A stretch of DNA of 64,000 bases from Minisyncoccia bacterium. GTDB lineage: Bacteria; Patescibacteriota; Minisyncoccia; Phycocordibacterales; UBA9973. Both the position numbers and the translations under genes were made by a program. Below, piece after piece: positions 20,254-58,000 of the stretch (its first letter is position 1; the number at the start of each line of letters is the position of its first letter). The stretch spans positions 67,309 through 131,308 of the forward strand of contig JBAQFC010000001.1 of NCBI GenBank assembly GCA_049287045.1, in the 5' to 3' direction. The notes below the pieces were generated by a model, which saw only the letters and a list, made by a program, of their open reading frames with translations, did not search any database and was not told where the DNA came from.

Positions 20254-20282
20254 AACACCCCAAATATTGGGGTGTTTTTTAT
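20254..20282 (+). terminator. Rho-independent terminator
   Basis: ACACCCC-AAATATT-GGGGTGT followed by TTTTTT. Confidence 0.7.
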
Positions 20283-20311
20283 TTGACAAAATAGCATAAA
20301 TATGCTAGTAT
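20283..20311 (+). promoter_or_regulatory. Sigma70-type promoter TTGACA-17-TAGTAT
   Basis: It lies directly after the terminator. Its extended sequence TTATTTGACAAAAT..CATAAA.AT..GCTA.TAT is nearly identical to the promoter at 61666. Confidence 0.5.
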
Positions 20312-20400
20312 CATAACGAATAAAGTTGTTTTAAAAAAAGTTTTGATTGGTTTCAAAAGTGCCTGTGGGGAATTTTTGAAACCAATTTAAACTAATAAAA

Positions 20401-22224
20401 ATGGAAACAATGGAAATAGTAAAAACAAAAGTTATCTCAATTAATGAGAACTCAGAAATTCTGATACCTTATGATTACCAAGAACCAGTAATTGAAAAAT
20501 TAATGGATTTTGTACAGGAAAATGAAAATAAACCATTCGCAACAGGATTCGTGGTTATGCCAGGAGGTTCTGGTAAAACTGTAATTTTTGCTCATTTGGT
20601 TAAAAGATTAAACCATCGTGTTATTATTGCTTCTCCGACTTTGACTATTTCAGATCAAAATCTTGAAACAATCAGACAAGTAAACCCTGGTCTTAAAATT
20701 AGTGTTTACTATGATGGTGAAAGGGATTTAACAGGTGATGTAATTTTTATTACATATCATTCTCTTATGAGAGTTTTGGCTAGCGAATCAATACCTCGTG
20801 ATTTTGCGAGATATGTTTTATTTGATGAGGCGCATAGAGCGCTTTCACCAGCTAGGTCTAAAATTATTGAAAAGCTGAATGCAGTATGTATTGGTTTTAC
20901 AGCGACTGATAAATTTTCTGAACAAAAAAATGTTGAGAAAAATTTCAAAAATGAAATCTACCGGATGTCTTTAAAAGAGGCTATTGAAATGGGAATTTTG
21001 CTGCCGCTTCGTGGGTATATTGTAGAAACTCAAATTAATTTGAGAGGAGTTCAGTTATCACACAGAAATCAACTTAATGAAAAAGCAGCAGAAAAATATT
21101 TAAACATTGCAGCTAGAAATCAGGTTGCTAGAGATTTTTATTTAAAAAATTTCAAAGGTATACCTGCTGTAGCTTTTTGTATAAGTATTAATCATGCGGT
21201 AGAGCTTGCAAAGTATTTTTCTTTATCTGGTATCAAAGCAGTGGCTGTTCATTCTAAAATCACTAAAGACAAAAGACGTGAAATCTTTTCTGAATATAGA
21301 AAAGGTAATATAGATGTTTTGTGTTCGTGTGATTTATTAATTGAAGGCTGGAATTCTAAGCGTGTTACAGTCGAACTCAATCTAAGACCTACTTATTCTT
21401 GGGTTTTGGCTGAACAAAGAGCTTGCAGAGTAATTAGACCTTTTATTGGGAAAGAAGCTGGAATCATCGTGGAGTTTCAAGATATCTATAGTAAAAAAGA
21501 TCAACATATTTTAGTTCATCATTTATTTGGAAATCGAGAGTATACCCAAGGTGGTTACATTGCTGCACCTAGTAAAATAATGCGAGCAGAAAGGCAAATG
21601 CTGGAAAATAATAATCCAGTTTATGTTTTTGATAACCTAAAAGTTTCTTCTATTGTCCGTGAGGTTGTAAATTTAAAACCAATTATCTCTGATAAAGCCT
21701 TCGGGAACAAAGAGTTGATTAAAGAAATTTTACTTTCTCGCGCAGATGTAAACTACAACGATTTGAAAGTTAGAGCTTTTATGGATCTCGAGTTCAATCA
21801 TTGGCTTTTCAAAGGTAAAGGGCAGTCTCTTATGAAAAAACATCTTGGAATGTTATGGCAAGGTTCTAAAGAAGATTATGAACTTTTTATGTATGACATT
21901 TTGGGTGTGCATCTCTTTAATGAAACTTTTTCTTTGCTTGGAGAAGATATAGAAAATGTGGCTGAAACTTTTGACCCATTAAAAACGAGTATGGACAAGG
22001 AAGTAATACGCAGGTTTGTTAATTTAATCTATAACGACAAAGAGAAACGTATAATTAAATTATACTTTGGTTTTGAATCTGTTAATGGTGAAGGAATGGA
22101 ATTAGAAGAAATAGGAGAAATACTTTCCTTAACAAGAGAAAGAGTGAGGCAAATTAAAGAAAGAGGTATAAGAAATCTTAGAAGATACTTTAAAGAACAT
22201 AAAGTTGGTATTGTTTCAATTTAA
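20401..22224 (+). CDS. SF2 DEAH-type helicase fused to a C-terminal sigma70 region-4-like HTH
   Basis: Helicase motifs I (GGSGKT), II (DEAH), III (TAT) and VI (QRACRVIR). The last 70 aa, ...GMELEEIGEILSLTRERVRQIKERGIRNLRRY, match sigma70 region 4.2. Confidence 0.7.
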   Translation: METMEIVKTKVISINENSEILIPYDYQEPVIEKLMDFVQENENKPFATGFVVMPGGSGKTVIFAHLVKRLNHRVIIASPTLTISDQNLETIRQVNPGLKISVYYDGERDLTGDVIFITYHSLMRVLASESIPRDFARYVLFDEAHRALSPARSKIIEKLNAVCIGFTATDKFSEQKNVEKNFKNEIYRMSLKEAIEMGILLPLRGYIVETQINLRGVQLSHRNQLNEKAAEKYLNIAARNQVARDFYLKNFKGIPAVAFCISINHAVELAKYFSLSGIKAVAVHSKITKDKRREIFSEYRKGNIDVLCSCDLLIEGWNSKRVTVELNLRPTYSWVLAEQRACRVIRPFIGKEAGIIVEFQDIYSKKDQHILVHHLFGNREYTQGGYIAAPSKIMRAERQMLENNNPVYVFDNLKVSSIVREVVNLKPIISDKAFGNKELIKEILLSRADVNYNDLKVRAFMDLEFNHWLFKGKGQSLMKKHLGMLWQGSKEDYELFMYDILGVHLFNETFSLLGEDIENVAETFDPLKTSMDKEVIRRFVNLIYNDKEKRIIKLYFGFESVNGEGMELEEIGEILSLTRERVRQIKERGIRNLRRYFKEHKVGIVSI

Positions 22225-22227
22225 TCA

Positions 22228-22262
22228 AACACCCGTTCTGTAATACAGAACGGGTGTTTTTA
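22228..22262 (+). terminator. Rho-independent terminator
   Basis: ACACCCGTTCTG-TAAT-ACAGAACGGGTGT followed by TTTTTAT. Confidence 0.75.
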
Positions 22263-22380
22263 TATTTCCTTTACTGCTTCTATCAGAACACTTTTTTCAC
22301 CATTATGCACAGAGACTTTGTCGGAGAAAGCTATGCATTTTTCTGGAACCAAAATATCTTTTGAGACTGCAAATATTTTT
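22260..22380 (-). pseudogene. Orphan duplicate of the dnaE 3' end (the last 39 codons and stop, about 90% identical to 24337-24456)
   Basis: A 120-bp segment aligns base-for-base with the real dnaE terminus 2076 bp downstream. It has no start codon and abuts the REP hairpin at 22381. Confidence 0.7.
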
Positions 22381-23155
22381 CTGCGTTAGGTCTTGCCTAA
22401 CGCAGAACTTTGTAATTTAGCCAATCAAAAATTTCTTTCATAAAATACTCCTTTTTTGGAAAATAATTTGGGAAAGATTTTATATCTATTATTTTATTCT
22501 GTGGTCTTTTCTTTTCAATAAAATCTAGATAACTTGAGTAACTATAATTACTTAAATATATTATAGATTCTATTTTATTTTTTATTTCTTTTTCTTTCCA
22601 GTCTTTATCTATCAATTTTATTGGATTTAAATGAATATATGAAAATAAGTATTTTAAATAATTATCATTGTCTGCATGCTCAGATTTAAACTTTCCTTCA
22701 AAAAGTCCACCAGTTCTTTTGTATTTATTATTGTAGTACATAGCATAAGCTGTGCTTAATTTTTGCATAAATTTACTTATTCCACCTTCAATTTTTTCTG
22801 TTATTAAAATATGAAAATGATTCGGCATTAGACAATATGCACCAATGGCAACTAAATTATTTATTCTTTCAATTTCATAAATATCAAAATCTTTATTTCT
22901 TTTAAGATCATATAAATTAAAATTTTGATCTGTATTTGATATGAAAAGTAAACTTATAAAATAATTATAATCTTGTTTGTCTTGGAATATTCTTTGTTTA
23001 CTATTACCACGATTATATATATGATAATATTCGCCTTCAACAAAATTTACTTTGCGTATAGACATACAATAAATTTATCATAATCACTCCGCATTAGGCA
23101 ATTTACGTTAGGCAAGACCTAACGCAGCATTACGAACAGAGACCTAACGCAGACT
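22381..23155 (-). mobile_element. IS200/IS605-type or RAYT-like element: a Y1 HUH transposase gene bounded by inverted REP-type hairpins
   Basis: The left end is CTGCGTTAGG-TCTTG-CCTAACGCAG (22381-22405). The right end is its reverse complement CGTTAGG-CAAGA-CCTAACGCAG (23106-23127), with partial extra copies at 23089-23101 and 23140-23155. Confidence 0.7.
22397..23065 (-). CDS. IS200-like/REP-associated tyrosine (Y1, HUH) transposase
   Basis: GEYYHIYNRGNSKQRIF...AYCLMPNHFHILI (HuH motif), with the catalytic Tyr region in the C-terminal half. Confidence 0.8.
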   Translation of the reverse strand: MSIRKVNFVEGEYYHIYNRGNSKQRIFQDKQDYNYFISLLFISNTDQNFNLYDLKRNKDFDIYEIERINNLVAIGAYCLMPNHFHILITEKIEGGISKFMQKLSTAYAMYYNNKYKRTGGLFEGKFKSEHADNDNYLKYLFSYIHLNPIKLIDKDWKEKEIKNKIESIIYLSNYSYSSYLDFIEKKRPQNKIIDIKSFPNYFPKKEYFMKEIFDWLNYKVLR

Positions 23156-23211
23156 TATTAAAATAAAAAGCCGTTGTAATTTTACAACGGCTTTCAAAAA
23201 AATAATTTTTA

Positions 23212-24240
23212 TTAACCCTTTTTGAATAAACCAATAATGTCTTCTTTAGAAAGCACCCCTCTTGAGGATGGATCAATAAGAATGATTTTACCGGCATTCA
23301 ATTTTTCCCAAGCAAATTCGGCAACCAATTCCGGATATATCTTTAATAAATCCGGAATCAATTTTTTAAACTTCGTTTCCAGTTCACTTGGAGAACTTGA
23401 TACCTGCTGTGTCTTAATAGTTTTATTTTTAGGTACGACAGCAGGTTTATTGGTTAAAATTTTATTTGTTTTATTAATTACATTACCCTGAGGATAAACA
23501 GAAAGAATTTTTATAGTTTTTACACCTTCTTCTTTCTGAGTTTCATAACCGGCATCTTTTAATCTTTTTAATGCTTTTTCACAATCAGTTTTTTTCTTGA
23601 GGGCTAAAGAAAAACTTTCAGGATTTTTTCTGAAAGTTTTTCTGTAGACTGTATTAATTATAGGCAAACCCTTCAGTACTTTTTTTCGTATGTTATCTAT
23701 TTCTTGCAACCTCTTTTGAAGTTCATCTTCTATAGAATCTTCGCTTAAAAATAAAAAAATACTTAAGCCTTTCTGAAAACAAAAAAAATTATTTTCGCGC
23801 AGCATGGAAACTACATTTTCAATATTTTCTGAAGTAGCAAATTCTGCTCGCGCCATCGACATTTGTTTTTGAGAAGAAAAAAGTGTTTTATATCCAAATT
23901 TCATCTCCCCGGTTGATTTAGGCATCTTAATATCATCAATAATGATACTGTTGGCTTTTTCAACCAAGATAGTGCCTTCCTTTCTTTCTTGTTCGCTTTC
24001 ATTAAGGTTTGGTAAAAGAATATGGAGATGTTTCTCGTTTTCTTTGCAAGAAAGTATTTCATTTCTCATAAGAATTTCCTCTGCTACTTCAGCAGAATCT
24101 TTTGAATCAAATTCCATAACTAAATAATTTGGAATGAATTCATTTGTTAGCACTTTTGCTATGATTTTTGAAAGCAGGTTTGCAATTTTTGAATAAAATT
24201 CTCTGTACCTCGTTGGTACAATTTTTATTGGGTTTTCCAT
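23212..24240 (-). CDS. Hypothetical protein lying inside the segment bounded by the duplicated dnaE ends
   Basis: 342 aa ORF with no recognisable domain. Confidence 0.45.
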   Translation of the reverse strand: MENPIKIVPTRYREFYSKIANLLSKIIAKVLTNEFIPNYLVMEFDSKDSAEVAEEILMRNEILSCKENEKHLHILLPNLNESEQERKEGTILVEKANSIIIDDIKMPKSTGEMKFGYKTLFSSQKQMSMARAEFATSENIENVVSMLRENNFFCFQKGLSIFLFLSEDSIEDELQKRLQEIDNIRKKVLKGLPIINTVYRKTFRKNPESFSLALKKKTDCEKALKRLKDAGYETQKEEGVKTIKILSVYPQGNVINKTNKILTNKPAVVPKNKTIKTQQVSSSPSELETKFKKLIPDLLKIYPELVAEFAWEKLNAGKIILIDPSSRGVLSKEDIIGLFKKG

Positions 24241-24335
24241 TAGCTTTGGGTTTTAAGGGTTTATAGATTTTTTAAAAAACTTTTTTATTAATCTATCATA
24301 CAATACAGACTATGTCAATAGTATGTATTGTAAAT

Positions 24336-27300
24336 TTATATTTCCTTTACCGCTTCAATCAGAACACTTTTTTCACCATTTCGTACAGATACTTTACCCG
24401 AGAATGCTATACATTTTTCTGGAACTAAAATATCTTTTGAGACTGCAAATATTTTTGGAAAAGCGACAGCTTCTATCGAACCGGTAAAATCTGAAATTTT
24501 AATGAAGGCCATCTGGTCATTTTTCTTGGTTGTGACAAGCCTAGAGATTTCGATGATTCCGGCAAGCGTAACAGTCATATCATTTCCAATTCTTTCTAAT
24601 ACTTTTTTAATATTCATATCACGACTTTCTATTTTTTCACGTAGTCTGTCGAGGGGGTGTCCGGAAACATATAACCCTAGAAGTTCTTTTTCCCAAAGTA
24701 ATTTTTCTGCTTGAGTTGCAGCAGGTGCTGGTTTTAGAGTGAGTGCTTGGAATTCTGTTACTGGTAATGTACCAAAAAGTGAAACCTGATTGGCTGCTTG
24801 TTTGGAGTTCTCACGGATATAAGCAAGCATATCTTCTAGGTTCGCTAGAAGTAAACCACGTTCTCCAAAGTCATCCATGCTACCTGTTTTTATTAAAGCT
24901 TCCATGGATTTTTTGTTTAAATTTTTACTTTTGACTCTATCTAGGAAATCAGTGATAGATTTGAATTTACCATTATTCTTTCTCTCTTCAATCAAAGCTT
25001 CTCCTATTTCGGCGCCAAAATTTTTTATTGTATAAAGTCCGAAGCGAATTGTTTTGTCGTCAATACGAGTAAAACCTTGGAAACTTTCATTTACATGTGG
25101 AGGCAAGACTTTGATTCCCATTTTTTCACATTCACGAGTAATCTCAGAAATTTTCTCTACATCTCCGGATTCAGCTGTGAGTACTGCACACATGTATTCG
25201 ACAGGGAAGTTGGCTTTCATATAAGCTGTTTGGTAAGCGACGCGTCCGTAACTCGCTGAGTGTGCTTTGTTGAAACCATACGCAGCAAAAGGTTCGATTT
25301 GTTTCCAAAGTTCTTGAGCTTTTTTGAGTGGCCATTTACTGTGTTCCACACAACCCGTGATGAAGTGGTCTTTTTGTTTTTCCATTTCCTCAGGAATTTT
25401 TTTACCGACAGCCTTTCTAAACTTGTCGGCTTCACCCCAACTATACCCGGCGATATGAATAGAAATAAGCAAGAGGTCATCTTGGTAAACAAGCACACCA
25501 TAAGTTTGTTTTAGGATTGGCTCGAGCATCGGGTCGAGATATTTTACGAGACTCGGATTATGTTTACGCTCGATATAGAGAGGAATGAATTGAATAGGTC
25601 CTGGACGATATAGAGCCACCATCGCATTGATATCGTGTATAGAAGTTGGTTTTAATTGTTTCAAATAAGCAGTCATACCACCACCGTTCAATTGGAAAAG
25701 TCCCATTGTCTCACCACGAGCTAGCATTTCAAAAGTTTTTTTATCAGCTACGTCTACATAATCAAGATCAACTTTTATGTTGTGAACTTTTTCTGTAATC
25801 TTCACCGCATCAGCAAGGATTGCTAGGTTTTTAATACCAAGAAAATCAAATTTTGGCAGACCGACATCTTCGATCTGATACATATCATACTGAGTAATTA
25901 TTTCTCCACCTTTAGGGTCGTATTGAATCGGTGTGAATTCATAAAGTGGTCGGGGAGCGATGACGATACCTGCAGCATGGACAGAGACGTGTCTAACACA
26001 GCCTTCCATTTTTTTTGCCAAATCAATAATTTCTTTTGTGATAGGTTCTTTTTTGTATGCTTCTTTCAGTTCCGGTACGAGCTTCATTGCGTTGTCTATT
26101 GTCATAGCAGTACCTTGAGAGCCGAGCGGAATTAAACTAGACAATCGATCACCAATAGCATACTCGTAGCCAAGTGCTCGAGCGACGTCACGCACGGAAC
26201 CTTTGGCCATCATTGTTCCAAATGTTCCTATCTGAGCAACACGGTCTTTACCATATTTTTCTTTTGTGTAGGCAATCATTTCTGCTCTACGATTGTCGGC
26301 GAAGTCCATATCAATATCGGGTAGAGAGGGACGCTCTGGGTTCAAGAATCTTTCGAAAGGGAGTTTGTATTCAAGTGGATCGACGTTGGTAATACCGAGC
26401 AAGTATGTCGTCAGAGATCCGGCGACAGATCCTCGAATATTTGTGAAGATATCATTCTCACGAGCGAAACGTAAAAGATCTCCCACAACTAAAAAGTAAG
26501 TAGGGTAACCTTTTTGTTTAATAATACCGAGCTCATATTCAAGTCTGTCCACATACTCTTTGTTCTGTGGTAATTTTCTAAATTCAAAACCTTTATATGC
26601 CAATTCTTTCAAGACTTCATTCGGATCTTTGTCGCCTTCGATTTTAAATTCAGGGAAGTATGCTTTACCCAATTCTATTTCATAATCTTCACACAAGTCA
26701 GATACGAGCATAGTGTTACCGACTGCATCAGGTACATCTTTAAAATATTCTTTTGCTGTTTTCTCATCAATAAAAGAAAAATCATCATCAGAGAATTCAA
26801 ATTTTCCTGTATCTTTTCCTTCAGCACCTGTATTTACCTGGAGCAGGGTATGGTGCGCTTTATGATCATCTTTACATGGGTAGTGTGAGTCTTGAGTAGC
26901 AACGATAGGTATATCGAATTTTTTTCCTAATTTTACTAGTTCATTACGAAGCTCTTGGTCTCTCTCTATGTGTGGGTGAGATTGTACTTCGATAAAATAA
27001 TTTTTACCAAAAATATCAACATGTTCTTTTATTATTGCTTCAGTTTTTTCAACATTTCCAGCAAGTATGGCACGAGAAAGTTTACCTCCCATACATCCTG
27101 AAAGACAAATGATTCCTTCACTGTATTTTTTTAATAGTTCTTCATCAACACGGGGCTTGTAATAATATCCTTCGAGGTTTGCAATCGTGACGATACGCAT
27201 CAAATTTTTATACCCCTGCAAATTTTTTGCGAGCAGTATTAGGTGATATCTTTTATTATCGATGCCTGCTTCCTTGTCAGTTAATTTTCTTTCTGCAACA

Positions 27301-27509
27301 TAGACTTCACACCCGATGATTGGTTTGATCTCATTTTTTTTACATTCTTTATAAAATTCAATTGCTCCGTACATATTGCCATGGTCAGTTATTGCTACAG
27401 CGGGCATATTGAACTTCTTGGCTAGTTTTACCATATCTTCCACCTTAGAAAGCCCATCCAATAGGGAATAGTGCGAATGGTTATGAAGGTGGACGAATTT
27501 GGATGCCAT
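24336..27509 (-). CDS. dnaE: DNA polymerase III alpha subunit
   Basis: 1057 aa with an N-terminal PHP domain ([13 protein letters not shown]), a polymerase core and a C-terminal OB fold. Confidence 0.95.
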
Positions 27510-40896: not shown

Positions 40897-41622
40897 ATGA
40901 ATATGAATTTTGTGAAGAAAAATAAAAATCGTGGTTTCACTTTGCTTGAGCTCTTGATCGTTATCGCGATCATCGCTATTTTGTCTGTTGCACTTGTTCT
41001 AGTTTTGAACCCAGCAGAAACTTTAAAGAAGGCTCGAGATGCTCAGCGTATCTCTGACCTTGCTACACTTAAAACTGCGATAGGACTTTATTTGACGAGT
41101 GTCTCCCCAGCATACTTGGGTGGAGTGGCTGATAACAATTTCTGTAAACCTACTCCAGCAACTGCATGGGGCGACGGTTCGTTCACATACAAGATTTCTT
41201 ACTCGACTCCTATTGCCGTCCCAATCACTGATGCAGTCGAAGATGGTAGTACTGGTGTTATCAAAAGACAAGCAGCTGTGAATCCAAGTCTTACAGATGG
41301 TACTGGTTGGATTCCTGTTAAGTTTGATAACATTACAGGAGGATCTCCAATTTCAAACATTCCTCTTGATCCAACAAACAATATCGTAAGCACTTTGAGT
41401 ACTGCTGCTTCTGTAAGAAGTGATGCTCTAGTCTATCGTTATGCATGTGCAATAACTCCACTTACTTTTGAAATCGATGCTCAACTAGAAAGTGATGCTT
41501 ATACTGTTACTGACGACAAAAGAGCAAGTGATGGTGGAAATAGTACACTTTATTATGAAGTTGGTACAAGTCTATCAATCATGACTGCTGCTTCTCCTTC
41601 TGCAGTTGGAACAGATATCTAA
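40897..41622 (+). CDS. Type IV pilin, paralogue 1
   Basis: Prepilin leader KNRG|FTLLELLIVIAIIAILS, with Glu at +5. Confidence 0.8.
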   Translation: MNMNFVKKNKNRGFTLLELLIVIAIIAILSVALVLVLNPAETLKKARDAQRISDLATLKTAIGLYLTSVSPAYLGGVADNNFCKPTPATAWGDGSFTYKISYSTPIAVPITDAVEDGSTGVIKRQAAVNPSLTDGTGWIPVKFDNITGGSPISNIPLDPTNNIVSTLSTAASVRSDALVYRYACAITPLTFEIDAQLESDAYTVTDDKRASDGGNSTLYYEVGTSLSIMTAASPSAVGTDI

Positions 41623-41643
41623 TCATTTAGCTAATAAAATAAA

Positions 41644-41676
41644 AACACCTCGGTTTTACACTGAGGTGTTTTTATT
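41644..41676 (+). terminator. Rho-independent terminator
   Basis: ACACCTCGG..CTGAGGTGT followed by TTTTTATTTT. Confidence 0.7.
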
Positions 41677-41768
41677 TTATTAGATTTGTCTCAAAAATAC
41701 TTGCTTGTTTTTTTTATATTTAGTAAAATTATATAAGCTATTATTATTTTATAAAAAACTATATATTT

Positions 41769-42449
41769 ATGAATATGAATTTTGTGAAGAAAAATAAAAA
41801 TCGTGGTTTCACTTTGCTTGAGCTTTTGATCGTTATCGCGATCATCGCTATTTTGTCTGTCGCACTCGTTCTAGTTTTGAACCCTGCAGAAACTTTGAAG
41901 AAGGCCCGAGATGCTCAGCGTATTTCTGACCTTAATACAATCAAAACTGCAATCGGACTTTATATGACGACAGTAGCACCGGTGTATTTAGGAGGAACAT
42001 CCTCCAACGCCGAATGTCAGGCTGTGACAGGTACTTGGGCAGGTACAAACAAGATTTTTTATTCTCTTCCTGTTGCTAGTGTTATTACTGACGTGGTATT
42101 GGATGGTGTTGGTGGTGCTCTAAAATTGCAGGTTGCAACTCCAAGTCTTACAGACAGTACTGGTTGGATTCCTGTTGATTTCGGTAATATTGCCGGAGGT
42201 TCTCCTATCTCAAAAATTCCTGTTGATCCAATCAACACTATTACTGCTCTAGGTGCAGTTGCAAGTACAGATCTAGTATATCGTTATGGATGTGCTCAAT
42301 CCCCATTAGCTTTCGAGATTGATGCTCAATTAGAAAGTATCGCTTACACTGTTACTACTGATATGAGAGCGACTGATGGTGGTAATAATGCAGGTGTATA
42401 TGAAGATGGTACTGACTTGTTGATATTTGGAACAGGCGCAGACTTCTAA
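41769..42449 (+). CDS. Type IV pilin, paralogue 2
   Basis: The first 60 aa are nearly identical to paralogue 1, and the C-terminal globular part diverges. Confidence 0.8.
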   Translation: MNMNFVKKNKNRGFTLLELLIVIAIIAILSVALVLVLNPAETLKKARDAQRISDLNTIKTAIGLYMTTVAPVYLGGTSSNAECQAVTGTWAGTNKIFYSLPVASVITDVVLDGVGGALKLQVATPSLTDSTGWIPVDFGNIAGGSPISKIPVDPINTITALGAVASTDLVYRYGCAQSPLAFEIDAQLESIAYTVTTDMRATDGGNNAGVYEDGTDLLIFGTGADF

Positions 42450-49041: not shown

Positions 49042-52000
49042 ATGAAAAAAATTATAAAAAAAATAAATTTAAGTCGGTTTAATTTATTCTTGGTAGTTCT
49101 ACTTCTTGGAGTAGTTTCTTTTTCATTCGTGAAACTTGTTTTTGCATCCACTCCGGATACCACTAAACCGAATCCTGGACAAGCATGGAATGAGATCGGC
49201 AACGGAAGTTTTCAGATCAGCGGACCTACTGGTGGACCCACAGTTCCCAAAACTTTTATTTTTCCTGATGTTGATAATACTTATGTCATCACTGCACCGA
49301 CTCCGGTTGGAACAACAGGACAAGTTCTTACTTCCACAGGAGCTCTCGGTCAACAATCCTGGGCGACACCAACTTTCGGTAATGTCAATGGTACTGGTAC
49401 GACAAATTTTATAACCAAGTGGAACGATGCTGTCGGTACTTTAGTAAATTCTTTAATTTTTGATAATGGAACAAATGTCGGTATCGGAACAACAGCACCA
49501 GCTACACCTTTTCAAGTTGGACAAAGTGGTACAAATAAAAATTCAAGATTTTGGGGGAACATAGATGTAAATGGAGGAGGTTCATTAACTTTTGGATCTG
49601 GAGATTCTTCTATCGGATATCCTTCTGGTTATAATTTGGCTTTCAATACTTACAACGGAAGTCTGACCGAAAAAATGAGAATCACGTCCGTTGGTAATGT
49701 TGGTATTGGAACCACGAATCCATCAATGTCACTAGATGTAAAAGGTTCAGGTGCTGGACACGTTATAATGGGTAGTTGGGCTTCAAATGGAGCTTACGGA
49801 GTACTTAGTCTGAATGGTTTAAATGATACAGGTTCCAATTTTTATAGTGCAGCAGGAGGTCCTCTTTATATTAATCGTCCAACAGGACAAGGTCTATATT
49901 TTAGAGAAAATAATGCTGATCAAATGACCATTCTAAATGGTGGCAATGTTGGTATTGGAACAGTAACTCCAGGAGCAAAATTGGACGTAGAAAATCTTTC
50001 TGCTGGAATCAACGAAGGGATTCGATTATCTCATGCAAATGCTTATGATGCAGGATCCAAGATTTCTTGGTGGATGGATAATGCTTCAGAAAGTGCAAAT
50101 ATCAAAAGTGCATGGTATCCGACTCCTACATCGAAATCGTATATTGCACTCTCTACCTATGGCCCGTCATTACTTGAGAGAATGAGAATAAATGGTGATG
50201 GTAATGTCGGTATTGGATCAACAGCACCAAACGAAAAGCTGGATGTTAAATCCGGTAATATTTCTATTTCTGATTCTGCTGGAAACGAACGCGGAAGATT
50301 TTGGAGTACAGATACAGGTGGTTCACCTTATGAAACAGGATTACAAACAAGTAATTATCACCTTGTGTTAGATGCTTCCGGTTCTGGACAAAATAATATT
50401 ATTATGCGAACAGGTTCAAGTACTGTTGGTACTGGTACTGAAAAATTAAGAATTACAGGTGCAGGTCTTGTCGGTATTGGAACATCAGCTCCTGCACAGC
50501 TTCTTCAAGTTGGTAGTGCGACTTCAACAGCCAATCAGTATTCAAGAATTGATTCCGCGGCAGCATATGATGCAGGATTAGAACTCGCATCTGCTGGTGC
50601 ATCAAAATGGACTATTTACAGACCAGGAGGTACAAATGATTTGAGGTTTTATGATGCTACTGCTACTGCAGGAGATAGGCTAACTATAAAAGCAAGCACT
50701 GGTAACGTCGGCATAGGCACCACAGCACCCACTGCAAAATTAGAACTCGGAGGTACGTCAGGTGTAGACGGTTTGAAATTCCCTGACGGAACTCTTCAGG
50801 TTACCGGAGCTTCTAGTGGAGTCAAATTACTTTCGAGTGGTACTGGCCTGACAATCAACGGAAATTCTGTAACGAGAACTGCAGTTAATGCTTGGGATGC
50901 TGAAGTATATAGTCAAGACGGTTATTCTGGTGGAGCCTATGCGTCTTATGTAGTTCGCAATCTGACTGGTGTTTATTATATGGTTGGTTTGAATACAGAC
51001 CCGACTTTAAATCCTAGTTACACTAGTATAGATTATGCTTGGTATGTGCTCAATAGTACAAGTGCTTCGATTTATGAAAGTGGTACCAACATTGCTCCTG
51101 CAATCACTACTATCGCTGTAGGTGATGTGCTTGCTGTGACTTATGATGGATCAAATATCAGATATCTCCAAAACGGAGTCGTAAAAAGAACAGTGCCGGT
51201 CATTATAACTCTTCCTCTTTATTTAGATTCTTCTTTCCACAGTGGAGCTGCGACACCGGATATTAGCAATATTCAATTCGGACCTATGAGTACTGGTTCT
51301 CAATGGGCTGCAAACGGAACAAGTATTTATTACAACGGTGGTAATGTTGGAATTGGAGTTACTGCACCAAGCAATAAATTAGAAATCAGTGGAGGAGATC
51401 TTATGGTTAACGGAGCTGGAGCTTCAAAAAGCCTATACTTAAATTATGATAAGACTAGCTTTCCAAATTATGCGAGTTCATTAACTCAAACAGGTGCTGC
51501 TGATGTTTCAGGTACGCGTGGACTTGTAATAAATGCTAACAGTGGTCAAGCAGTAACAAATTATGGTATTGGTTTTGCGATTGATGGGGCTAATAAAATG
51601 TTCCTCCAAGGAAGTAGCGGCAATGTCGGTATTGGTACTACAGCACCAACATCTAAATTAGAGGTATCAGCTGGAAATATTCAAATGAGTGATGGGTATC
51701 CAGTAACTTGGGGTGATACAGTCACACCTAGAGGTCAAATAGTTACTTTTTCAGCTTCTCCTGATAGAGGCTTAAGATACACTGCACAACCAGGAGGTGT
51801 TGGATGGTTTGGAGTTCACGATTTTTATGCGGCTGACGGAGTTGCTGGAACTACACCTACATTGGCAATGAGAATAAAAGATGGCAAAGTCGGCATTGGA
51901 ACGTCGGCACCGGTTGGCAAACTTAATGTAGTCGCTGCTTCTTCTAATGTATCACAGTCTGGGCAAGCTATCGGTTTTGGAAGTACGGCAGTTCCATCTG

Positions 52001-55000
52001 GTGTAACAATGGGTTGGAATGATAATAATTACGGATGGCTCCAGTCATGGAGCAGTACGCCACTCTATGTTAATGCGTTAGGAAATGATGTCATATTCAA
52101 TAGAGATAGTGGCAAAGTCGGTATTGGAAACACTGCACCATCCGAAAAGCTCGATGTCACAGGCAATGTTGAATTCTCAGGTGCTTTGATGCCAAACAAT
52201 CTTCCAGGATCTTCTGGTCAATTTTTGACCTCTGGTGGTGCTGGAGTTGCTCCAACATGGATTGCTGGTGTGACAGGAAGTGGCACGACCAATTATGTTA
52301 CAAAATGGACACCAAACGGTACCACTCTTGGTAATTCTTTGATTTTTGATAATGGTACAAATGTCGGTATCGGTACAACAACACCAGGAGCACAACTAGA
52401 AGTAAAGGGAAACGGAACCGCCAAAATATTAATTGGAGATATGAGCTATTCTAATTATGCTGGAATTTCATTAACTGGATTAACAACTGCTGGGAATTAC
52501 ACGTTATTAACGAGAGCTGCGGACCCTGATTTGTATATCAACAGACCATCTGGTTATGCAATGCAGTTTTCAGAAGCAAACGGTGTTCCTCAGATGTTTA
52601 TTAAAACCGGTGGTAACGTCGGTATTGGAACAACAGTACCAACTCAAAAATTAACCGTGAATGGTGCGATTACTCAAGGAACCAACGGAGCTTCTTGGAC
52701 TTTAGATACTTCCGTCGTTGCAAACGATTGGACAATGATTGGTTCCTCTGACTCTGTTACTCAGAGATATTTACACTTTGGTTATAGAGCAGCTGATGCA
52801 ATAGGAGGTGCATACACTGATAGTGCAAAAATAAACTTCTACACAGGAGGAGCTATTCTTGGAATCAACGGTGGTAAAGTTGGTGTTGGTGTAGCATTAC
52901 CTACAGCCAAGTTCCAAGTCGGAACATCTTCTTCTTCTGCGGGTGTAGATGTGTCAGTTATAGGTTCATTTGGAGGTAGTGTTGTAGGATCAGCTTATCC
53001 TCTAACTGTTTCAAATACTGCTGCTATAACCGTAGGAAATAAAGCATTGATGACGTATGTCATGGGACCTGCTTGGTCTTCTACTGCTTATGCTGGTGCA
53101 TATCTTGAAAACGTAGATGCGTCTACCTCATATGTTATTGGAACTTATCGTCCTTCTGATTCTCTAGCAGAAAGAATGAGAGTCACATCCAATGGAAATG
53201 TCGGAATTGGAAATACAGCACCACTTAATAAACTTACCGTAACAGCTTCCACTATGCCTACTGGACAAGGTGCATTTTCTGCATCAAACACTTCAACTTC
53301 TGGAACTCAATATGGTCTTGCTGGTACAGCAACTGGTGCTAGTACGACAAATGTTGCTGGTTACTTTAGTGCCTCAGGTGCGACAAACAATTATGGTTTA
53401 ATTGTTAATAGTGGTCTTGTTGGTATTGGTACACAAACACCATCTTTTCCTTTGGAAATTGTCAAAGCTGCACCTCTTGGTACACAATTGGCTTTAACTC
53501 AATCTGCTGGAAATACAACAGGATTGTTGGCATGGACTGGTGGATCTTTTTATATACAAACAGGTTCGAAATATGATTCGTCTGCTGCTTGGGTTAGTAC
53601 CAACGGCACAACAGTCGGTAACCAAGGGTATTCTTATTTCGGTCAAGACGGGTCTGTTTCACTCGGTATGGTTTCTAGTGCTCTTACTGGTACTACTATT
53701 TCTTCATGGAGAACTTCTCCATTTCAGTTGACTGCTGCAGGCAATCTAGGTCTTGGTGGTATTACTCCAACAGTTGCACTTGAAGTTTTAGGTAGTACCA
53801 CAAACAGTTCTGTAAAAGTTCGTGGAATAGAAATACAAGGTTATGCAGTGAACAATGAATGGATAGGTGAAAATATTTATTATAGTGGAGGATGGAAATA
53901 TCGAGCTAACGGTTTTGGAAATCAGATATATTTCGGTGGTAGTGCTACCGGCGATATTTCATTTTACACTGCGCCAAATAATGTCGGTGGTGCAGGTGCA
54001 GCTGCTACTCTTACAAATCGTTTTACAATTACTCCTGGTGGCAGTATCGGTATAGGTACAACAAACCCAGGTGCAGCCCTAGAAGTAAATGGTCAAGTGA
54101 AAATCACCGGAGGTACTCCAGGTGCTGGCGAAGTTCTTACTTCAGATGCAGTTGGTTTAGCTACATGGGTTCTTCCCGTAGCATCAGTCACAGGTACAGG
54201 TACACAAAATTATGTAACTAAATGGAATAATGCAGGAGGTACTGCTATTGGTAACTCTTTGGTTTTTGATAATGGAACAAATGTTGGTATAGGTACAACA
54301 GCACCAGGATATAAATTAGATGTTTCAACAACTGGACCTGGTGGAATGCATGTTGCTACAAACACTTCTACTGCTGCTAATCCATCATTTTATTTGACAG
54401 ATGCAGCTGCGAGTTATTCTGATTTTGAAATTTATTCTGATGCTACTAATGTTAAATTAGGACCTTATCTTGATAAGGGTATTCAGTTTGTTGGTAATGC
54501 CGGAACTGAAACAAAAATGACAATTGATAGCTCAGGCAACGTAGGTATAGGCACAACAGCAGCAACACTACTAGATGTAAAAGGTGCTTCACCTATAATC
54601 CAGGTACAAGATAATGCCGCAGGTTATGCTATCACTCGTTACCGAGCTGGTGGTTCTGGAGTAAGTGATGCTTATTTTGGAGTTGATGCTGGAGTCGTGG
54701 GTTTGATTACTGGTGGCGGAGGAATTCCTTATGCTGCTGTTATCTCTCGTCAGGGCGCATACCCAGTGCAATTTGGAACAAACAACCTTGCTCGAATGAC
54801 GATAAGTAGTGCTGGACTTGTTGGTATTGGATTAACAAACCCAACAGCTCCTCTAGAAATAAACGATAGTACATGGACCACTGCTTCTGTCCGACCAACT
54901 GTTTTGAAACTAGGTTCTTATACTGATGCTGCAAACGAAGGTCCATTTATAGACTTCACTTCACGATGGACTGGTCTTTATCAGGATTGGGTTGTAGGAC

Positions 55001-58000
55001 GTATCGGTGGCGTCTATGATAATTCTGTTGCAAACGGTGGAGCATTAGTTTTCTATACAAACTACGGTGTTGGAGCAGCCAGTGCGACAGTGAAAGAACA
55101 AATGAGAATTAATCCACTCGGCAATGTTGGTATTGGTACATCATTACCTGATGTACTTGGTTTAGCAGCAGGTCATACTTCTCTTACCCTTGCAGGAGCT
55201 ACTGGTGATTTTTATGCAAATTTTGAGCTTCAAGGACACAGAGGTGTAGGAGGTAACCAGGTTGGTACAATATCTTTCTTTCAAGACACAACTAGAACCG
55301 CATTGATTAGTGTTAATAATGGAGTCTCTGCTTTAGATGAAAGTTCTATGACATTTTTTACTAAAACAACTGGTGTTGCAATGGGAGAAAGAATGAGAAT
55401 TGATAAAGCAGGCAACGTCGGTATTAGAAATACAGCACCATTAGAACTCTTATCTCTCGGAACAGCTGGAACAACAGCTGGTATATTGTCTTTTGCAGGA
55501 GCGACTTCCGGTAAAGCAATCCTTCAAGCAACAGCAGCAGCTGGCACTCCCACTCTCAATCTTCCAACCACATCTGGAACACTTGCTCTTACATCCGATG
55601 TACCAGGAACAATCTACGATTCTACATGGCAGAGAATAGTAAATCCTGGTGGAGCATATTATTCTTCAACCGGATCTTTGGGAACTGGTGCAATAGCCAT
55701 CAATCTTCCTGTCGGAATGGGAAACCAAATGATCAGTATGACCATAAAGGTTTATGAATACGCGACCAACGAGTCATTTGAAATTCATGCTGGAGGATAT
55801 ATGTACACCTCAGGTAATACCTGGGCAAATAATCCATTTGCTTATATCGTAGGAAATCCAGGAGTTGATAGAAGATTTACAGTAAGATTTGGTTATACAG
55901 CTGGAGGTAAAGCTGTTGTTTATATTGGTGAGACTGGATCCACATGGGCATATCCTCAGGTGGCAGTCACCGATGTCTTTGTTGGTTTCCAGGGTCAATC
56001 AGTTGCTCTTACTACTGGTTGGTCAGTTGGTTTTGCAACTGCTTTTGAAAACGTTACAGCTACTGTTACTAACACTCAGGTTGGTTATGCTCTTAGTACC
56101 AACACAGCCAATACCACTGTATTGCGAGATGCTTCAGGCAATTTCGCTGCTGGAGTTATAACTGCTAATTTAAGCGGTTATAAAAACATAGATAATGGTA
56201 ATGAGATAACCATTGCTAATGGTTTCGCTGGTGGTGCTTTATATTTGAACTATCGTGGTGCTTCTAGTGCAATTACTTCATTAAATATTATGAATGGTAT
56301 GTCAGGTGGCGTTTATGCAAATGTTCAGGCATTAGCTTTCGTAAAATCAGGAGGTACAGCTGCTCAGTTTTTAAAAGCAGACGGAAGTGTTGATTCAAAT
56401 GTGTACATGACTTCTGGTAGTCAATGGACAACTTCAGGAACAAATCTTTACGATTCTTTGGCAGGCAATGTTGGTATTGGATCAACAAACCCAGTTAATA
56501 AACTTGAGGTAGCATCTTCCACTATGCCTACTGGGCAAGGTATAATTACTGCGTCAAATACTTCAACAGCAGGAACTCAATATGGTATTGCTGGTACAGC
56601 AACTGGTGCTAGTACGACAAACGTTGCAGGCTACTTTAGCGCCTCGGGTGCTACAAATAATTATGGTTTGATTGTTAACGGTGGTCTTGTGGGTATAGGA
56701 ACACAAACACCAACTTATCCACTTTCAATCGTATCAAGCACAGCTGGTAAAGCTTATGGTGATTTAGAGATTCAAGATACGGGCACGGACGGTCCATATT
56801 TAACTTTCCATGACCCAGGTTCTATGGCATGGTCTATGGGAGTCACAAACAGTACACAAAATTTATCTATAAGACAAAATAATATAACTGGAACTGCAGC
56901 AATGACTATTCTAAATACGAGTGGCAACGTCGGTGTTGGTGTATCTCCATCAGAAAAGTTAGATGTTTATGGAAATGCTATATTTGGAAGTAACGCTGCA
57001 AACTCATATATTGGAATAAGAAGACCCGACGGTTCGGTTACCGCAACATTTAAAATAGCTACTGATACTGCAGGACTTTTAATTAAGCAAGGTGGTGGTG
57101 GTTCTTATATCGATTTTAGTACAAATGCCACAACAAACGCAGTTAGAATTATAGATAATGGCTACGTCGGTATCGGAACGACGGCGCCAACCAATAACCT
57201 GCATGTTCTAGGTGTCGGTCCTGGACACCTCATCCGTTCTGAAACTACCGCAGCGACTGGAGATGGTTACAGTGGTATTCAATTGACTGCAGGAAGCCGC
57301 TCAGGGTATTTGTTTGTTGCAAATCAAACTGGTACGAGTTATGGAGGTGACGGTGGCTTAAATATGTACAGTTCCAATGGTCCATTATTGTTCTGGCCAG
57401 GTGCTGTTGAGAAGATGAGGATTTTAGCAAACGGTAATGTCGGTATTGGAGTCACAGCTCCACCAGTTAAATTATCCGTCGGTGCGGTTACTTCAGGATA
57501 CGGAATGATTGGAGTAAAACAAACAAGTCCATTGAACTACAATGGTATCTGGGTTGAATCTTCAACAAATTCTAAATCTGTAACTATTGGTCATACTGGT
57601 GTTTATGGTTCAATTGGCACGAACTATGCTACTGGTGGTGATGCCCCTTATTCAAACTTAGTTCTTAATGAAGGTGGCGGCAACGTCGGTATTAGAAATA
57701 CAGCACCATTGGAACTCTTGTCTATTGGAACCTCTGGAACAACGGCTGGTGTATTATCCCTTGCCGGAGCAACATCCGGTAAAGCAATCATTAATGTTCT
57801 AGCAGCAGCTGGCACTCCCACCCTCACTCTTCCCACAACAACCGGAACTTTGGCTCTTTTGACTGATATGCCAGCTAATATATCTTTGGTTACTACAGGA
57901 GGTGCGACAGTAAATGGTAACGATGTAACAAATGGTGGAGCTGGATCTTGGACTAGTGATGTATATAGTAAAGATGGTTTTGTCGGTGGAGCATATGTAT

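What the first reader, a model, noticed from the sequence alone, without database searches (positions are those of the whole stretch)
22260..24456. A Y1 (HUH) transposase bounded by inverted REP hairpins sits in an insert marked by a 120-bp duplication of the dnaE 3' end
The IS200/RAYT-like gene (22397-23065) is flanked by 25-nt hairpins. The left one is CTGCGTTAGG-TCTTG-CCTAACGCAG, and the right one is its reverse complement plus partial extra copies. This is the REP/BIME-like arrangement typical of REP-associated tyrosine transposases. Immediately left of the left hairpin lies an orphan 120-bp copy (22261-22380) of the last 39 codons plus stop of dnaE. The true dnaE end is 2076 bp to the right (24337-24456), at about 90% identity. 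The segment between the two copies carries the transposase and a 342-aa hypothetical gene (23212-24240). That gene is therefore probably cargo brought in with, or trapped by, the element. The 10% divergence argues for an old event, or for recombination with a diverged dnaE allele, rather than a fresh target-site duplication.
Basis: seen in the sequence. Interest (0 to 1): 0.65.

Follow-up and report, generated by a model that had tools for sequence, protein, structure and literature searches.

The report
REP-flanked tyrosine transposase beside displaced dnaE end
A domesticated-looking single-strand DNA transposase gene with its own 25-base hairpins, plus one unknown gene, sits just after the DNA polymerase gene dnaE of a candidate-phyla-radiation bacterium, and a spare, diverged copy of the dnaE tail shows that the DNA arrived by recombination with a relative rather than by ordinary transposition.

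Summary
A 122-nt direct repeat (22259-22380 and 24335-24456, 90% identical) brackets a Y1/HUH transposase gene with inverted 25-nt hairpins and a 342-aa ORF.

The host is a Minisyncoccia (candidate phyla radiation) MAG. Its closest relatives have empty sites: dnaE, then a terminator, then pth. The window carries 4,054 extra bases here (20281-24334), so the dnaE-pth gap is a variable hot spot. The helicase gene is also non-ancestral.

The Y1 protein belongs to a large, conserved Patescibacteria family. Its HUH and Tyr motifs are intact. It matches only the REP-associated tyrosine transposase (RAYT) profile, below that profile's cut-off. The same hairpin flanks relatives' genes and also occurs as solitary dispersed copies.

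The two dnaE ends differ mainly at third codon positions (10 of 12; omega 0.056; dS 0.50). They are therefore two diverged alleles, not an in-situ duplication.

My inferred mechanism has one homologous crossover in dnaE and one illegitimate joint exactly at a hairpin foot. The 342-aa gene is non-ancestral here, but nothing shows that the transposase moved it.

This is a divergent RAYT/REP variant plus a recombination scar. Interest is moderate.

The parts
20281..24334 (.). Whole segment absent from the closest relative (4,054 bp) in the dnaE-pth gap
   Evidence: BLAST against L012 (GCA_036169735.1). Window 24335-29242 matches L012 up to the dnaE stop. Window 20280 downward continues directly after that stop.
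20254..20276 (.). Terminator hairpin A (AACACCCCAAATATTGGGGTGTT). It corresponds to the hairpin that directly follows the dnaE stop in L012 (same stem, one loop base different).
   Evidence: It is one of only two AACACCC...GGGTGTT hairpins in the window.
20283..20311 (+). Promoter-like site of the helicase cassette (TTGACA-17-TAGTAT with TG)
   Evidence: consensus match only.
20401..22224 (+). 607-aa SF2 helicase fused to sigma-70 region 4. It is part of the variable segment.
   Evidence: Pfam ResIII, Helicase_C and Sigma70_r4. PADLOC mREase_IV 4.5e-18 and MzaA 8.7e-8. PHROG_16 4e-53. Absent from L012 and L013.
22227..22259 (.). Terminator hairpin B. It follows the helicase stop and abuts the stop codon of the orphan dnaE end.
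   Evidence: (I9). It shares the outer arms AACACCC/GGGTGTT with hairpin A.
22260..22380 (-). Orphan copy of the last 39 codons plus stop of dnaE (repeat copy 22259-22380)
   Evidence: The frame is intact. Both amino-acid changes (G to D, R to H) are unique to this copy when compared with the window, L012 and L013 dnaE genes.
22381..22405 (.). 25-nt REP-like hairpin downstream of the Y1 gene. It supplies the last two codons and the stop codon of Y1. Its outer foot is the junction with the orphan dnaE end.
22397..23065 (-). 222-aa Y1 (HUH) tyrosine transposase gene of RAYT type
   Evidence: Pfam Y1_Tnp 5.5e-10. NCBIfam REP_Tyr_transpos 1.7e-10, 40.9 bits against a cut-off of 80. The HUH motif (H83-F84-H85) is invariant and Y143 in SYIHLNP is conserved in at least 90% of 26 aligned relatives.
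23089..23152 (.). Upstream hairpin cluster. An older hairpin (arms 23089-23098 and 23143-23152) is split in its loop by 12 nt plus a full inverted copy at 23103-23127.
23155..24321 (-). 342-aa gene cassette: promoter-like site 24290-24318, ORF 23212-24240, terminator 23166-23195
   Evidence: 78.5% DNA identity to L002 8879-10038 over exactly this span. Promoter and terminator scan. No Pfam, NCBIfam, PADLOC, PHROG or PDB match. AlphaFold2 pLDDT 39-51.
24335..24456 (-). Repeat copy that forms the functional 3' end of dnaE
24336..27509 (-). dnaE (DNA polymerase III alpha), 1057 aa
   Evidence: 98% amino-acid identity to P0126.

Best explanation
The gap between dnaE and pth in this Minisyncoccia lineage is a recombination hot spot that holds different cargo in each close relative. 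In this genome it holds three units.

1. A helicase-sigma cassette. It ends in a terminator that directly abuts a dnaE stop codon.
2. A 772-bp RAYT module. This is a Y1/HUH tyrosine transposase gene bounded on both sides by its cognate 25-nt hairpin in inverted orientation.
3. A self-contained cassette for a 342-aa protein of unknown function.

The Y1 gene is a housekeeping-like (domesticated) member of a Patescibacteria-wide RAYT-type family. Its hairpins are a REP-like dispersed repeat.

The 122-nt duplication is not a target-site duplication. It consists of two different dnaE alleles. DNA from a relative about 10% diverged entered carrying a dnaE 3' portion with the 342-aa cassette and the RAYT module downstream of it. 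One end recombined homologously inside dnaE. The other end was joined illegitimately, exactly at the outer foot of the hairpin, to codon -39 of the resident dnaE. This is homology-facilitated illegitimate recombination. The displaced resident tail remains as a decaying orphan next to its old terminator.

Shown: the anatomy, the empty sites, the allelic nature of the two copies, the family and the hairpin dispersal.

Inferred: the order of events, the recombination route, and any role of the Y1 enzyme or of hairpin structure in making the junction.
For: - Empty and differently filled sites. L012 (dnaE 98% aa) has the dnaE stop, hairpin A, a 193-aa gene, then pth. L013 (94%) has pth 26 bp after dnaE. 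The genome holding P0128 (91%) has DUF6922, RadC and Cas1 genes in the gap.
- Allelic divergence. The 12 differences fall 10 at third, 2 at second and 0 at first codon positions. dS is 0.50 and omega 0.056. This is the same range as between functional dnaE ends of different genomes (omega 0.016-0.077) and matches the whole-gene dS of 0.53 against L012. In-situ duplication with a neutral orphan is disfavoured: P = 0.007 for the third-position share and 0.001-0.008 for the nonsynonymous count.
- Both amino-acid changes are specific to the orphan, which suggests recent decay.
- The orphan is followed directly by a terminator, as dnaE is in L012.
- Flank asymmetry against L012. The pth side is 97-98% identical right up to the junction. 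The dnaE 3' side is 88-90% identical, and dS rises from 0.26 at the 5' end to about 0.8 at the 3' end.
- RAYT reading. The HUH and Tyr motifs are conserved. All 26 of 26 relatives hit REP_Tyr_transpos and none hit IS200. More than 7,900 homologues at 65-77% identity are nearly all from Patescibacteria, and most clusters are seen on only one or a few contigs. They sit among housekeeping genes.
- Hairpins in relatives. The same hairpin flanks relatives' genes, with a compensatory stem variant in L010.
- Hairpin dispersal. There are 89 matching stretches in GTDB genomes. About 80 of 99 hairpins are solitary, and one Nomurabacteria MAG has at least 13 copies.
- Both module boundaries are exact hairpin feet, at 22380/22381 and 23152/23153.
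Against: - No donor-type arrangement (dnaE followed by 342 and Y1 without an orphan) was found. No intermediate (helicase, terminator B, intact dnaE) was found either.
- The orphan is no closer to L012 than the functional copy is (15 against 13 differences). So 'resident' and 'incoming' cannot be assigned, and at least two imports are needed.
- Identity to L012 is mosaic across the whole region, so the flank asymmetry is only suggestive.
- No other hairpin copy lies in this 64-kb window. Dispersal in this particular genome is therefore untested.
- The match to the RAYT profile is below NCBI's cut-off, and no solved Y1 structure is found by sequence.
- A junction exactly at a hairpin foot is also what a Y1-made circle would give.
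Confidence: 0.55

Rival explanations
1. Campbell-type integration of a 2,076-bp circle. A circle was cut out of a donor, possibly as single-stranded DNA by the Y1 enzyme. One cut was at the hairpin foot and the other inside dnaE. The circle comprised the hairpin, Y1, the upstream hairpins, the 342 cassette and 122 nt of dnaE. It then integrated by a single homologous crossover within the 122-nt dnaE segment, which duplicated that segment.
For: - The final architecture is exactly what one crossover of such a circle predicts: a repeat, one unit, then the repeat again, with the junction hairpin-foot|AAAAATATTT.
- Y1 transposases of the IS200/IS605 family work through single-stranded circles. This rests on established knowledge; see the PMC6006769 abstract.
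- A similar layout exists in L044. A repeat of at least 46 nt at 91% identity brackets a hairpin plus a hicBA-like cassette, with the hairpin 3 nt from the left repeat.
- The two copies being different alleles fits this model as well.
Against: - Only 122 nt at 90% identity is available for the crossover, and the longest perfect block is 30 nt.
- No second copy of the unit or of the 342 gene exists with hairpins anywhere in 5.8 billion proteins.
- Hairpin polarity relative to the repeat differs between the window and L044.
- Other Y1 modules carry no such repeats.
- There is no evidence that RAYT-type enzymes excise long segments.
Confidence: 0.2
2. The Y1 element is an active IS200-like transposon that moved here carrying or trapping the 342-aa gene as cargo.
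For: - There is a Y1_Tnp domain with terminal hairpins. The 342 cassette ends 2-3 nt from a hairpin foot.
- Y1 modules sit in different gene contexts in different genomes.
Against: - The 342 cassette occurs elsewhere without Y1 or any hairpin.
- The family looks single-copy and evolves about as slowly as dnaE (65-77% against 72-83% identity among top hits).
- Profiles favour RAYT over IS200.
- The hairpins are inverted rather than direct as in IS200/IS605.
- IS200/IS605 elements make no duplications. This rests on established knowledge.
- The repeat copies are diverged alleles.
Confidence: 0.1
3. In-situ duplication of the dnaE tail, for example a long target duplication or replication slippage at insertion, followed by slow divergence.
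For: - The two copies are direct repeats that flank the insert.
- The orphan carries two unique nonsynonymous changes.
Against: - Ten of 12 differences are at third codon positions and omega is 0.056. Under this model P is 0.007 for the third-position share and 0.001-0.008 for the nonsynonymous count.
- dS of 0.50 equals the divergence between species-level relatives. Yet the orphan frame is intact. The latter point is weak, because P is 0.63 even after 10 random hits.
Confidence: 0.05
4. Assembly chimera of two co-existing strains.
For: - The source is a metagenome-assembled genome. The region is a strain-variable hot spot.
Against: - A second assembly (Logan, SRR28062879) gives an unbranched 3,043-bp contig identical through both copies and all junctions.
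- The junction at 22380/22381 has no long shared k-mer that could cause a false join.
Confidence: 0.05

Closest known systems
RAYT / TnpA_REP with REP sequences (Nunvar 2010; Bertels & Rainey 2011, PMC3116915; Ton-Hoang 2012; Bertels 2017, PMC5581495)
   Same: - It is a Y1 HUH enzyme with the catalytic Tyr.
- Its distribution is apparently single-copy and housekeeping-like.
- The gene is bracketed by short GC-rich hairpins in inverted orientation.
- The same hairpin is dispersed elsewhere in related genomes.
   Different: - The protein is about 220 aa and scores only half of NCBI's RAYT cut-off.
- The host is Patescibacteria. I found no paper describing RAYT/REP there.
- The hairpins are singlets, not REPIN doublets.
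- There is no conserved tetranucleotide outside the stem.
- Copy numbers are low (13 or fewer exact copies per MAG).
- 28 of 104 copies in related genomes lie in frame inside genes, so they are not strictly extragenic.
IS200/IS605 family TnpA elements (IS200, IS608, ISDra2)
   Same: - The Pfam domain is the same (Y1_Tnp).
- The unit is about 0.75 kb, a single gene with subterminal hairpins.
- There is no short target duplication.
   Different: - The hairpins are inverted rather than in the same orientation.
- There is no sign of multiple near-identical copies.
- No match to an IS200 profile was found.
- Protein conservation looks like that of a vertically inherited gene.
Homology-facilitated illegitimate recombination in naturally transformable bacteria (de Vries & Wackernagel 2002; Prudhomme et al. 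2002; cited from my own knowledge)
   Same: - One end is anchored by homology (dnaE).
- The other end is joined without homology.
- Foreign DNA is inserted next to the anchor, and the anchor comes from a diverged donor allele.
   Different: - Here the illegitimate joint sits exactly at a hairpin foot.
- It leaves a 122-nt displaced gene tail.
- Nothing is known about transformation in this organism, and the event is inferred only from its scar.
Integrative elements that target the 3' end of a gene and carry a replacement end (att-site duplications of tRNA or protein genes)
   Same: - A diverged duplicate of the gene tail brackets the insert, and the gene stays intact.
   Different: - There is no integrase of the tyrosine- or serine-recombinase type in the insert.
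- The insert is only 2 kb.
- The element is not seen at the dnaE ends of other genomes.
Rickettsia palindromic elements (Ogata et al. 2000; cited from my own knowledge). This comparison concerns the side observation only.
   Same: - Short palindromic repeats are inserted in frame into essential protein-coding genes of a reduced genome.
   Different: - The unit is 25 nt rather than about 100-150 nt.
- It is linked to a Y1 gene.
- It was seen in relatives, not in this window.

Membership tests
RAYT (REP-associated tyrosine transposase) | Y1 HUH nuclease domain with the His-hydrophobic-His motif and the catalytic Tyr | tested here: met
   Pfam Y1_Tnp 5.5e-10. H83-F84-H85 is invariant and Y143 (SYIHLNP) is conserved in at least 90% of 26 aligned family members.
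RAYT (REP-associated tyrosine transposase) | Sequence membership by curated profile (NCBIfam NF047646, cut-off 80 bits) | tested here: not met
   40.9 bits. All 26 relatives hit this model and no IS200 model, but all hits are weak (best E 1.4e-12). No solved Y1 structure was found by sequence.
RAYT (REP-associated tyrosine transposase) | Gene flanked by REP hairpins in inverted orientation | tested here: met
   Window 22381-22405 and 23103-23127. The same holds in L004 and L007 and in L020, L025, L037, L042, L079 and L087. L010 has a direct pair.
RAYT (REP-associated tyrosine transposase) | Flanking repeat over-represented elsewhere in the same genome (criterion of PMC5581495) | tested here: inconclusive
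   No further copy lies in this 64-kb window, and the rest of the MAG is not available. In related genomes the criterion is met: 89 stretches, about 80 solitary copies, and at least 13 exact copies in one Nomurabacteria MAG. One solitary copy lies in the closest relative (L048).
RAYT (REP-associated tyrosine transposase) | About one copy per genome with no near-identical duplicates; housekeeping-like inheritance | tested here: inconclusive
   There is one copy in the window. Most homologue clusters are seen on only one or a few contigs, and identity is 65-77% across the clade. Neighbours are housekeeping genes. No whole genome was counted. One MAG (ELA077) shows two fragments.
REP / REPIN repeats | Extragenic location and occurrence as inverted doublets (REPINs) | tested here: not met
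   28 of 104 copies lie inside long ORFs. Ten of these host ORFs were checked, and every copy reads (S/C)VRQDLTQ. The copies are singlets, and no close inverted pair occurs away from Y1 genes.
REP / REPIN repeats | Conserved guide tetranucleotide 5' of the hairpin foot (as described in PMC6006769) | tested here: not met
   No conserved position lies outside the 25-nt unit in 106 copies.
IS200/IS605 insertion sequence | Multiple near-identical copies; end hairpins in the same orientation; IS200-type TnpA | tested here: not met
   There is a single copy in the window. The hairpins are inverted. No IS200 profile hit was found.
Site-specific integrative element with a duplicated gene end | Encodes an integrase and recurs at the same gene end in other genomes | tested here: not met
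   There is no recombinase domain apart from Y1. The dnaE ends of relatives carry other cargo or none.

The most novel reading that the evidence does not exclude
The Patescibacteria RAYT and its 25-nt hairpin may form an active single-strand cut-and-join system. It would fuse the hairpin foot to foreign DNA and so capture and move neighbouring gene cassettes. This would leave cassettes that are bounded by a hairpin and bracketed by diverged repeats of the target, as in this window and in L044. The same system would seed hairpins in frame into essential genes such as LeuRS, ArgRS, LigA, RuvB and TruB.
Probability: 0.12. Interest if true: 0.75.

Novelty: new variant of a known kind. Interest (0 to 1): 0.45.

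Why it matters
**Gene flow in reduced genomes.** Candidate-phyla-radiation bacteria have tiny genomes, few recognised mobile elements and no genetics. This locus shows a concrete route by which they gain genes. It is a hot spot after dnaE that is refilled from diverged relatives. The displaced gene tail records the event and gives an internal measure of how diverged the donor was.

**A wider RAYT/REP range.** The data also show that a RAYT-type enzyme with its own hairpin repeat is conserved across thousands of Patescibacteria. In related genomes those hairpins sit inside essential genes. RAYT/REP systems have been studied almost only in Proteobacteria. A compact, conserved 25-nt system in very small genomes would be a useful place to ask what these domesticated transposases do.

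Tried and rejected
- **A link between the 342-aa gene and DNA polymerase genes.** The gene follows dnaE here and polA in L002. I considered a functional link and dropped it, because the distant homologue P0123 lies between a xerC-like gene and rpsO.
- **Search for the intermediate or donor arrangement.** A metagenome scan with the helicase protein found no relatives. A scan with a conserved 26-nt dnaE-tail pattern gave 0 hits. An exact look-up of the helicase found nothing on record.
- **Duplication as a regular by-product of Y1-module insertion.** A self-BLAST of about 100 hairpin loci found only L044 as a real analogue. L047 and L053 are tandem or paralogous coding repeats. L024 has a duplicated gene end, but the hairpin lies outside the repeat pair.
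- **A hairpin-like target in dnaE at codon -39.** There are 11 matches in 19 positions to the hairpin sequence (read). This is too weak to use.
- **Known RNA elements.** Rfam and tRNA scans found nothing in the region.
- **Literature.** Searches found no description of RAYT/REP in Patescibacteria.

Full report
**1. What is in the sequence**

- Positions 22259-22380 and 24335-24456 form a 122-nt direct repeat. It is 90.2% identical, with 12 substitutions and no gaps, and the copies are 2,076 bp apart (self-BLAST E 1.9e-41).
- The right copy is the last 39 codons plus stop of a complete 1057-aa dnaE on the minus strand (24336-27509). Its domains are PHP, DNA_pol3_alpha, finger, HHH_6 and OB.
- The left copy still translates as 39 codons plus stop, with two amino-acid changes.
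- Between the copies lie a 222-aa ORF with a Pfam Y1_Tnp domain (22397-23065, minus; 5.5e-10) and a 342-aa ORF (23212-24240, minus).
- A perfect 10-bp-stem, 5-nt-loop hairpin lies at 22381-22405 (CTGCGTTAGG-TCTTG-CCTAACGCAG). It begins at the first base after the left repeat copy.
- An inverted copy with two mismatches lies at 23103-23127. No shuffle of the window gives any match, and no other copy exists in the 64 kb.
- The 'partial extra copies' are the two arms of an older hairpin (23089-23098 and 23143-23152). Its loop was split by 12 nt plus the full copy, so a hairpin is nested inside a hairpin.
- The Y1 stop codon and last two codons lie inside the downstream hairpin.
- Rfam and tRNA scans find nothing in the region.

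**2. Source and assembly**

The 342-aa protein is recorded as a hypothetical protein of a Minisyncoccia MAG, which belongs to the candidate phyla radiation. A Logan contig from run SRR28062879 is 100% identical to window 21647-24689 and spans both repeat copies and every junction. The junction at 22380/22381 has no long shared sequence that could cause a false join. A chimera is therefore unlikely. It is not excluded, because the two assemblies may share reads.

**3. Empty sites and a hot spot**

- The closest dnaE (P0126, 98% amino-acid identity, GCA_036169735.1, locus L012) is followed by a terminator hairpin, a 193-aa gene, pth, a signal peptidase gene and hisS.
- The next relative (94%, L013) has pth 26 bp after dnaE.
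- A third relative (91%) has DUF6922, RadC, Cas1 and other genes between dnaE and pth.
- DNA alignment shows that window 24335-29242 matches L012 up to the dnaE stop. Window 20280 downward continues immediately after that stop.
- The window therefore has 4,054 extra bases (20281-24334).
It is an SF2 helicase fused to sigma-70 region 4, with weak similarity to type IV restriction and MzaA defence proteins.
- The hairpin that terminates dnaE in L012 is found at window 20254-20276, with the same stem and one loop base different. That position is now upstream of the helicase gene.
- A second hairpin with the same outer arms (22227-22259) follows the helicase gene and directly abuts the stop codon of the orphan dnaE end. 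These are the only two such hairpins in the window.
- The predicted empty site (helicase, terminator, dnaE) was not found.

**4. The two dnaE ends are two alleles**

- Of the 12 differences, 10 are at third codon positions, 2 at second and none at first.
- Nei-Gojobori estimates give dS 0.50, dN 0.028 and omega 0.056. These values match comparisons between functional dnaE ends of different genomes (omega 0.016-0.077). They also match the whole-gene dS of 0.53 between the window and L012.
- Now take the alternative model: the tail was duplicated in place and the orphan then drifted neutrally. About 45% of differences should then be at third positions and about 63% should be nonsynonymous. The observed counts have P = 0.007 for the third-position share and 0.001-0.008 for the nonsynonymous count.
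- Both amino-acid changes (G to D, R to H) are unique to the orphan when compared with three functional copies. This fits a short period of decay after displacement.
- The copies therefore come from lineages about as far apart as the window and its sister species.

**5. The Y1 gene and its hairpins**

- The protein has more than 7,900 homologues. The top 120 are 217-243 aa long and 65-77% identical, and nearly all come from Patescibacteria. Most clusters are seen on only one or a few contigs.
- This conservation is close to that of dnaE in the same clade (72-83% among top hits).
- Relatives sit among housekeeping genes in varying contexts.
- The HUH motif (H83-F84-H85) is invariant and the Tyr in SYIHLNP is nearly so.
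- All 26 sampled members match NCBIfam REP_Tyr_transpos and none matches an IS200 model. The scores are about half the curated cut-off. No solved structure is detected by sequence.
- The same hairpin flanks the gene in relatives, mostly with loop TCTTG upstream and CAAGA downstream. One relative (L010) has a different, compensating stem with the same loop.
- A scan of 185,579 species genomes with a 20-nt core found 89 stretches, almost all in Nomurabacteria, Paceibacterota and related MAGs. Of 99 hairpins in the 80 loci returned, 19 flank a Y1 gene and about 80 are solitary. One MAG has at least 13 exact copies on 10 contigs.
- The closest relative's contig carries one solitary copy (L048).
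- The conserved unit is exactly 25 nt with no conserved flank.
- By the criteria of Bertels et al. 2017 (PMC5581495) this behaves as a RAYT with a REP-like repeat, not as an IS200-type insertion sequence.
- It differs from described systems. The hairpins are singlets rather than REPIN doublets. No external guide tetranucleotide is present. Copy numbers are low. Many copies are intragenic (section 8).
- Dispersal in this particular genome could not be tested beyond the window.

**6. The 342-aa gene**

- Only one close homologue exists in 5.8 billion clustered proteins (P0002, 70% identity). An exhaustive profile search adds only two distant, unannotated proteins.
- The homologue lies in GCA_023267245.1, 8 nt after the polA stop. 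It has no Y1 gene, no hairpin and no duplicated gene end.
- DNA similarity (78.5%) covers window 23155-24321. This span holds the promoter-like site, the ORF and the terminator. It stops 2-3 nt from the hairpin foot on one side and 15 nt from the dnaE stop on the other.
- dN/dS is 0.26, so it is a real gene.
- Its function stays unknown. No family or PDB match was found, structure models were poor, and the fold search was not informative.
- It is not ancestral at this site. Nothing shows that the Y1 element moved it.

**7. Mechanism**

Shown:
- The RAYT module (22381-23152) is bounded on both sides by exact hairpin feet.
- One foot is fused to codon -39 of a dnaE tail that belongs to a different allele from the one now attached to dnaE.
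- That orphan tail still sits against a terminator, as a normal dnaE end does.

Inferred:
- An ancestor had the helicase cassette's terminator abutting dnaE.
- DNA from a diverged relative then entered, carrying a dnaE 3' portion followed by the 342 cassette and the RAYT module.
- One end recombined homologously within dnaE. The other was joined without homology at the hairpin foot. This is homology-facilitated illegitimate recombination.

Consistent with this:
- Identity to L012 is 97-98% on the pth side right up to the junction but 88-90% at the dnaE 3' end.
- dS rises from 0.26 at the 5' end of dnaE to about 0.8 at the 3' end.
- The region is mosaic overall, so this is only suggestive.
- The orphan is no closer to L012 than the functional copy is. 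At least two imports are therefore needed, and their order is unresolved.

The exact placement of the joint at a hairpin foot could reflect cutting and joining by the Y1 enzyme, or breakage at a hairpin. I cannot tell which.

The main rival is a single crossover of a 2,076-bp circle, which gives the same final structure. L044 lends it some weight: there a repeat of at least 46 nt at 91% identity brackets a hairpin plus a hicBA-like cassette. However, other Y1 modules have no such repeats, and hairpin polarity differs between the two cases.

**8. Side observation**

- In the related loci, 28 of 104 distinct hairpin copies lie inside long ORFs. Ten of these host ORFs were examined, and in each the copy is read in the one open frame as (S/C)VRQDLTQ.
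- The hosts include LeuRS (three genomes, same editing-domain loop), ArgRS (two), LigA, PurH, leucyl aminopeptidase, RuvB and TruB.
- Copies at orthologous sites in different species keep the hairpin while the flanks diverge.
- This resembles the Rickettsia palindromic elements and departs from the 'extragenic' definition of REPs.

**9. Verdict**

The locus is a recombination scar at a hot spot. It contains a divergent RAYT/REP module of a Patescibacteria-wide family, which makes it a new variant of a known kind. I found no paper describing RAYT/REP in this phylum. Interest is moderate. It lies mainly in the family and its hairpins rather than in the duplication itself.

Noticed in passing
L015, L022, L036, L048, L051, L063, L067, L069, L074, L076, L082 (coordinates): In related genomes, 28 of 104 copies of the 25-nt hairpin lie inside long ORFs. 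In the ten host ORFs examined, each copy is translated as (S/C)VRQDLTQ. The hosts include LeuRS (three times, same loop), ArgRS (twice), LigA, PurH, PepA, RuvB and TruB.
   Followed up: partly
L022/L054/L096/L041; L032/L038/L081/L080/L045; L049/L060/L086: Hairpin copies sit at apparently orthologous positions in different species. The flanks have diverged but the hairpin is almost unchanged. This suggests either maintenance of the hairpin or repeated site-specific insertion.
   Followed up: no
window 23089-23152: One hairpin is inserted into the loop of another. Several solitary copies elsewhere also sit between flanks that extend the palindrome (for example L054 and L079, 9 bp). This hints that hairpin loops may be the insertion target.
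   Followed up: partly
window 20401-22224: A single 607-aa protein fuses an SF2 helicase (ResIII and Helicase_C) to sigma-70 region 4. It has weak PADLOC hits to type IV restriction enzymes and MzaA. It is absent from the closest relatives, so it may be a defence-type cargo gene.
   Followed up: partly
L044 1-740: A direct repeat of at least 46 nt (91% identical) brackets one hairpin plus a cassette that I read as hicB/hicA-like from its translation. This is the only clear analogue of the window's layout. The contig starts inside the left repeat.
   Followed up: partly
L024 1028-1743: The last ~42 codons of a 314-aa ORF are duplicated (127 nt, 83% identical) about 400 bp downstream. The copy lies 38 nt from a hairpin that carries an extra half arm.
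   Followed up: no
alignment A5: The C-terminal residues of Y1 family members are encoded by the downstream hairpin in all three frames (...LR*...ALGKT*...VRQDLTH*). The hairpin always overlaps the end of the gene, but its register drifts.
   Followed up: no
window 23155-24321 and L002 8879-10038: In both genomes that have it, the 342-aa cassette starts within 8-15 nt of the stop codon of a DNA polymerase gene (dnaE here, polA there). A distant homologue (P0123) is not next to a polymerase gene.
   Followed up: partly
window 49042-61602 and 61753-63675: A 4,186-aa ORF with several internal repeats (for example 53194-53450 and 56464-56720, 84% identical) is followed by a 640-aa ORF with tandem repeats at 61888-62846.
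   Followed up: no
window 40897-42449: Two adjacent paralogous ORFs (241 and 226 aa) show about 73% DNA identity over 700 bp.
   Followed up: no
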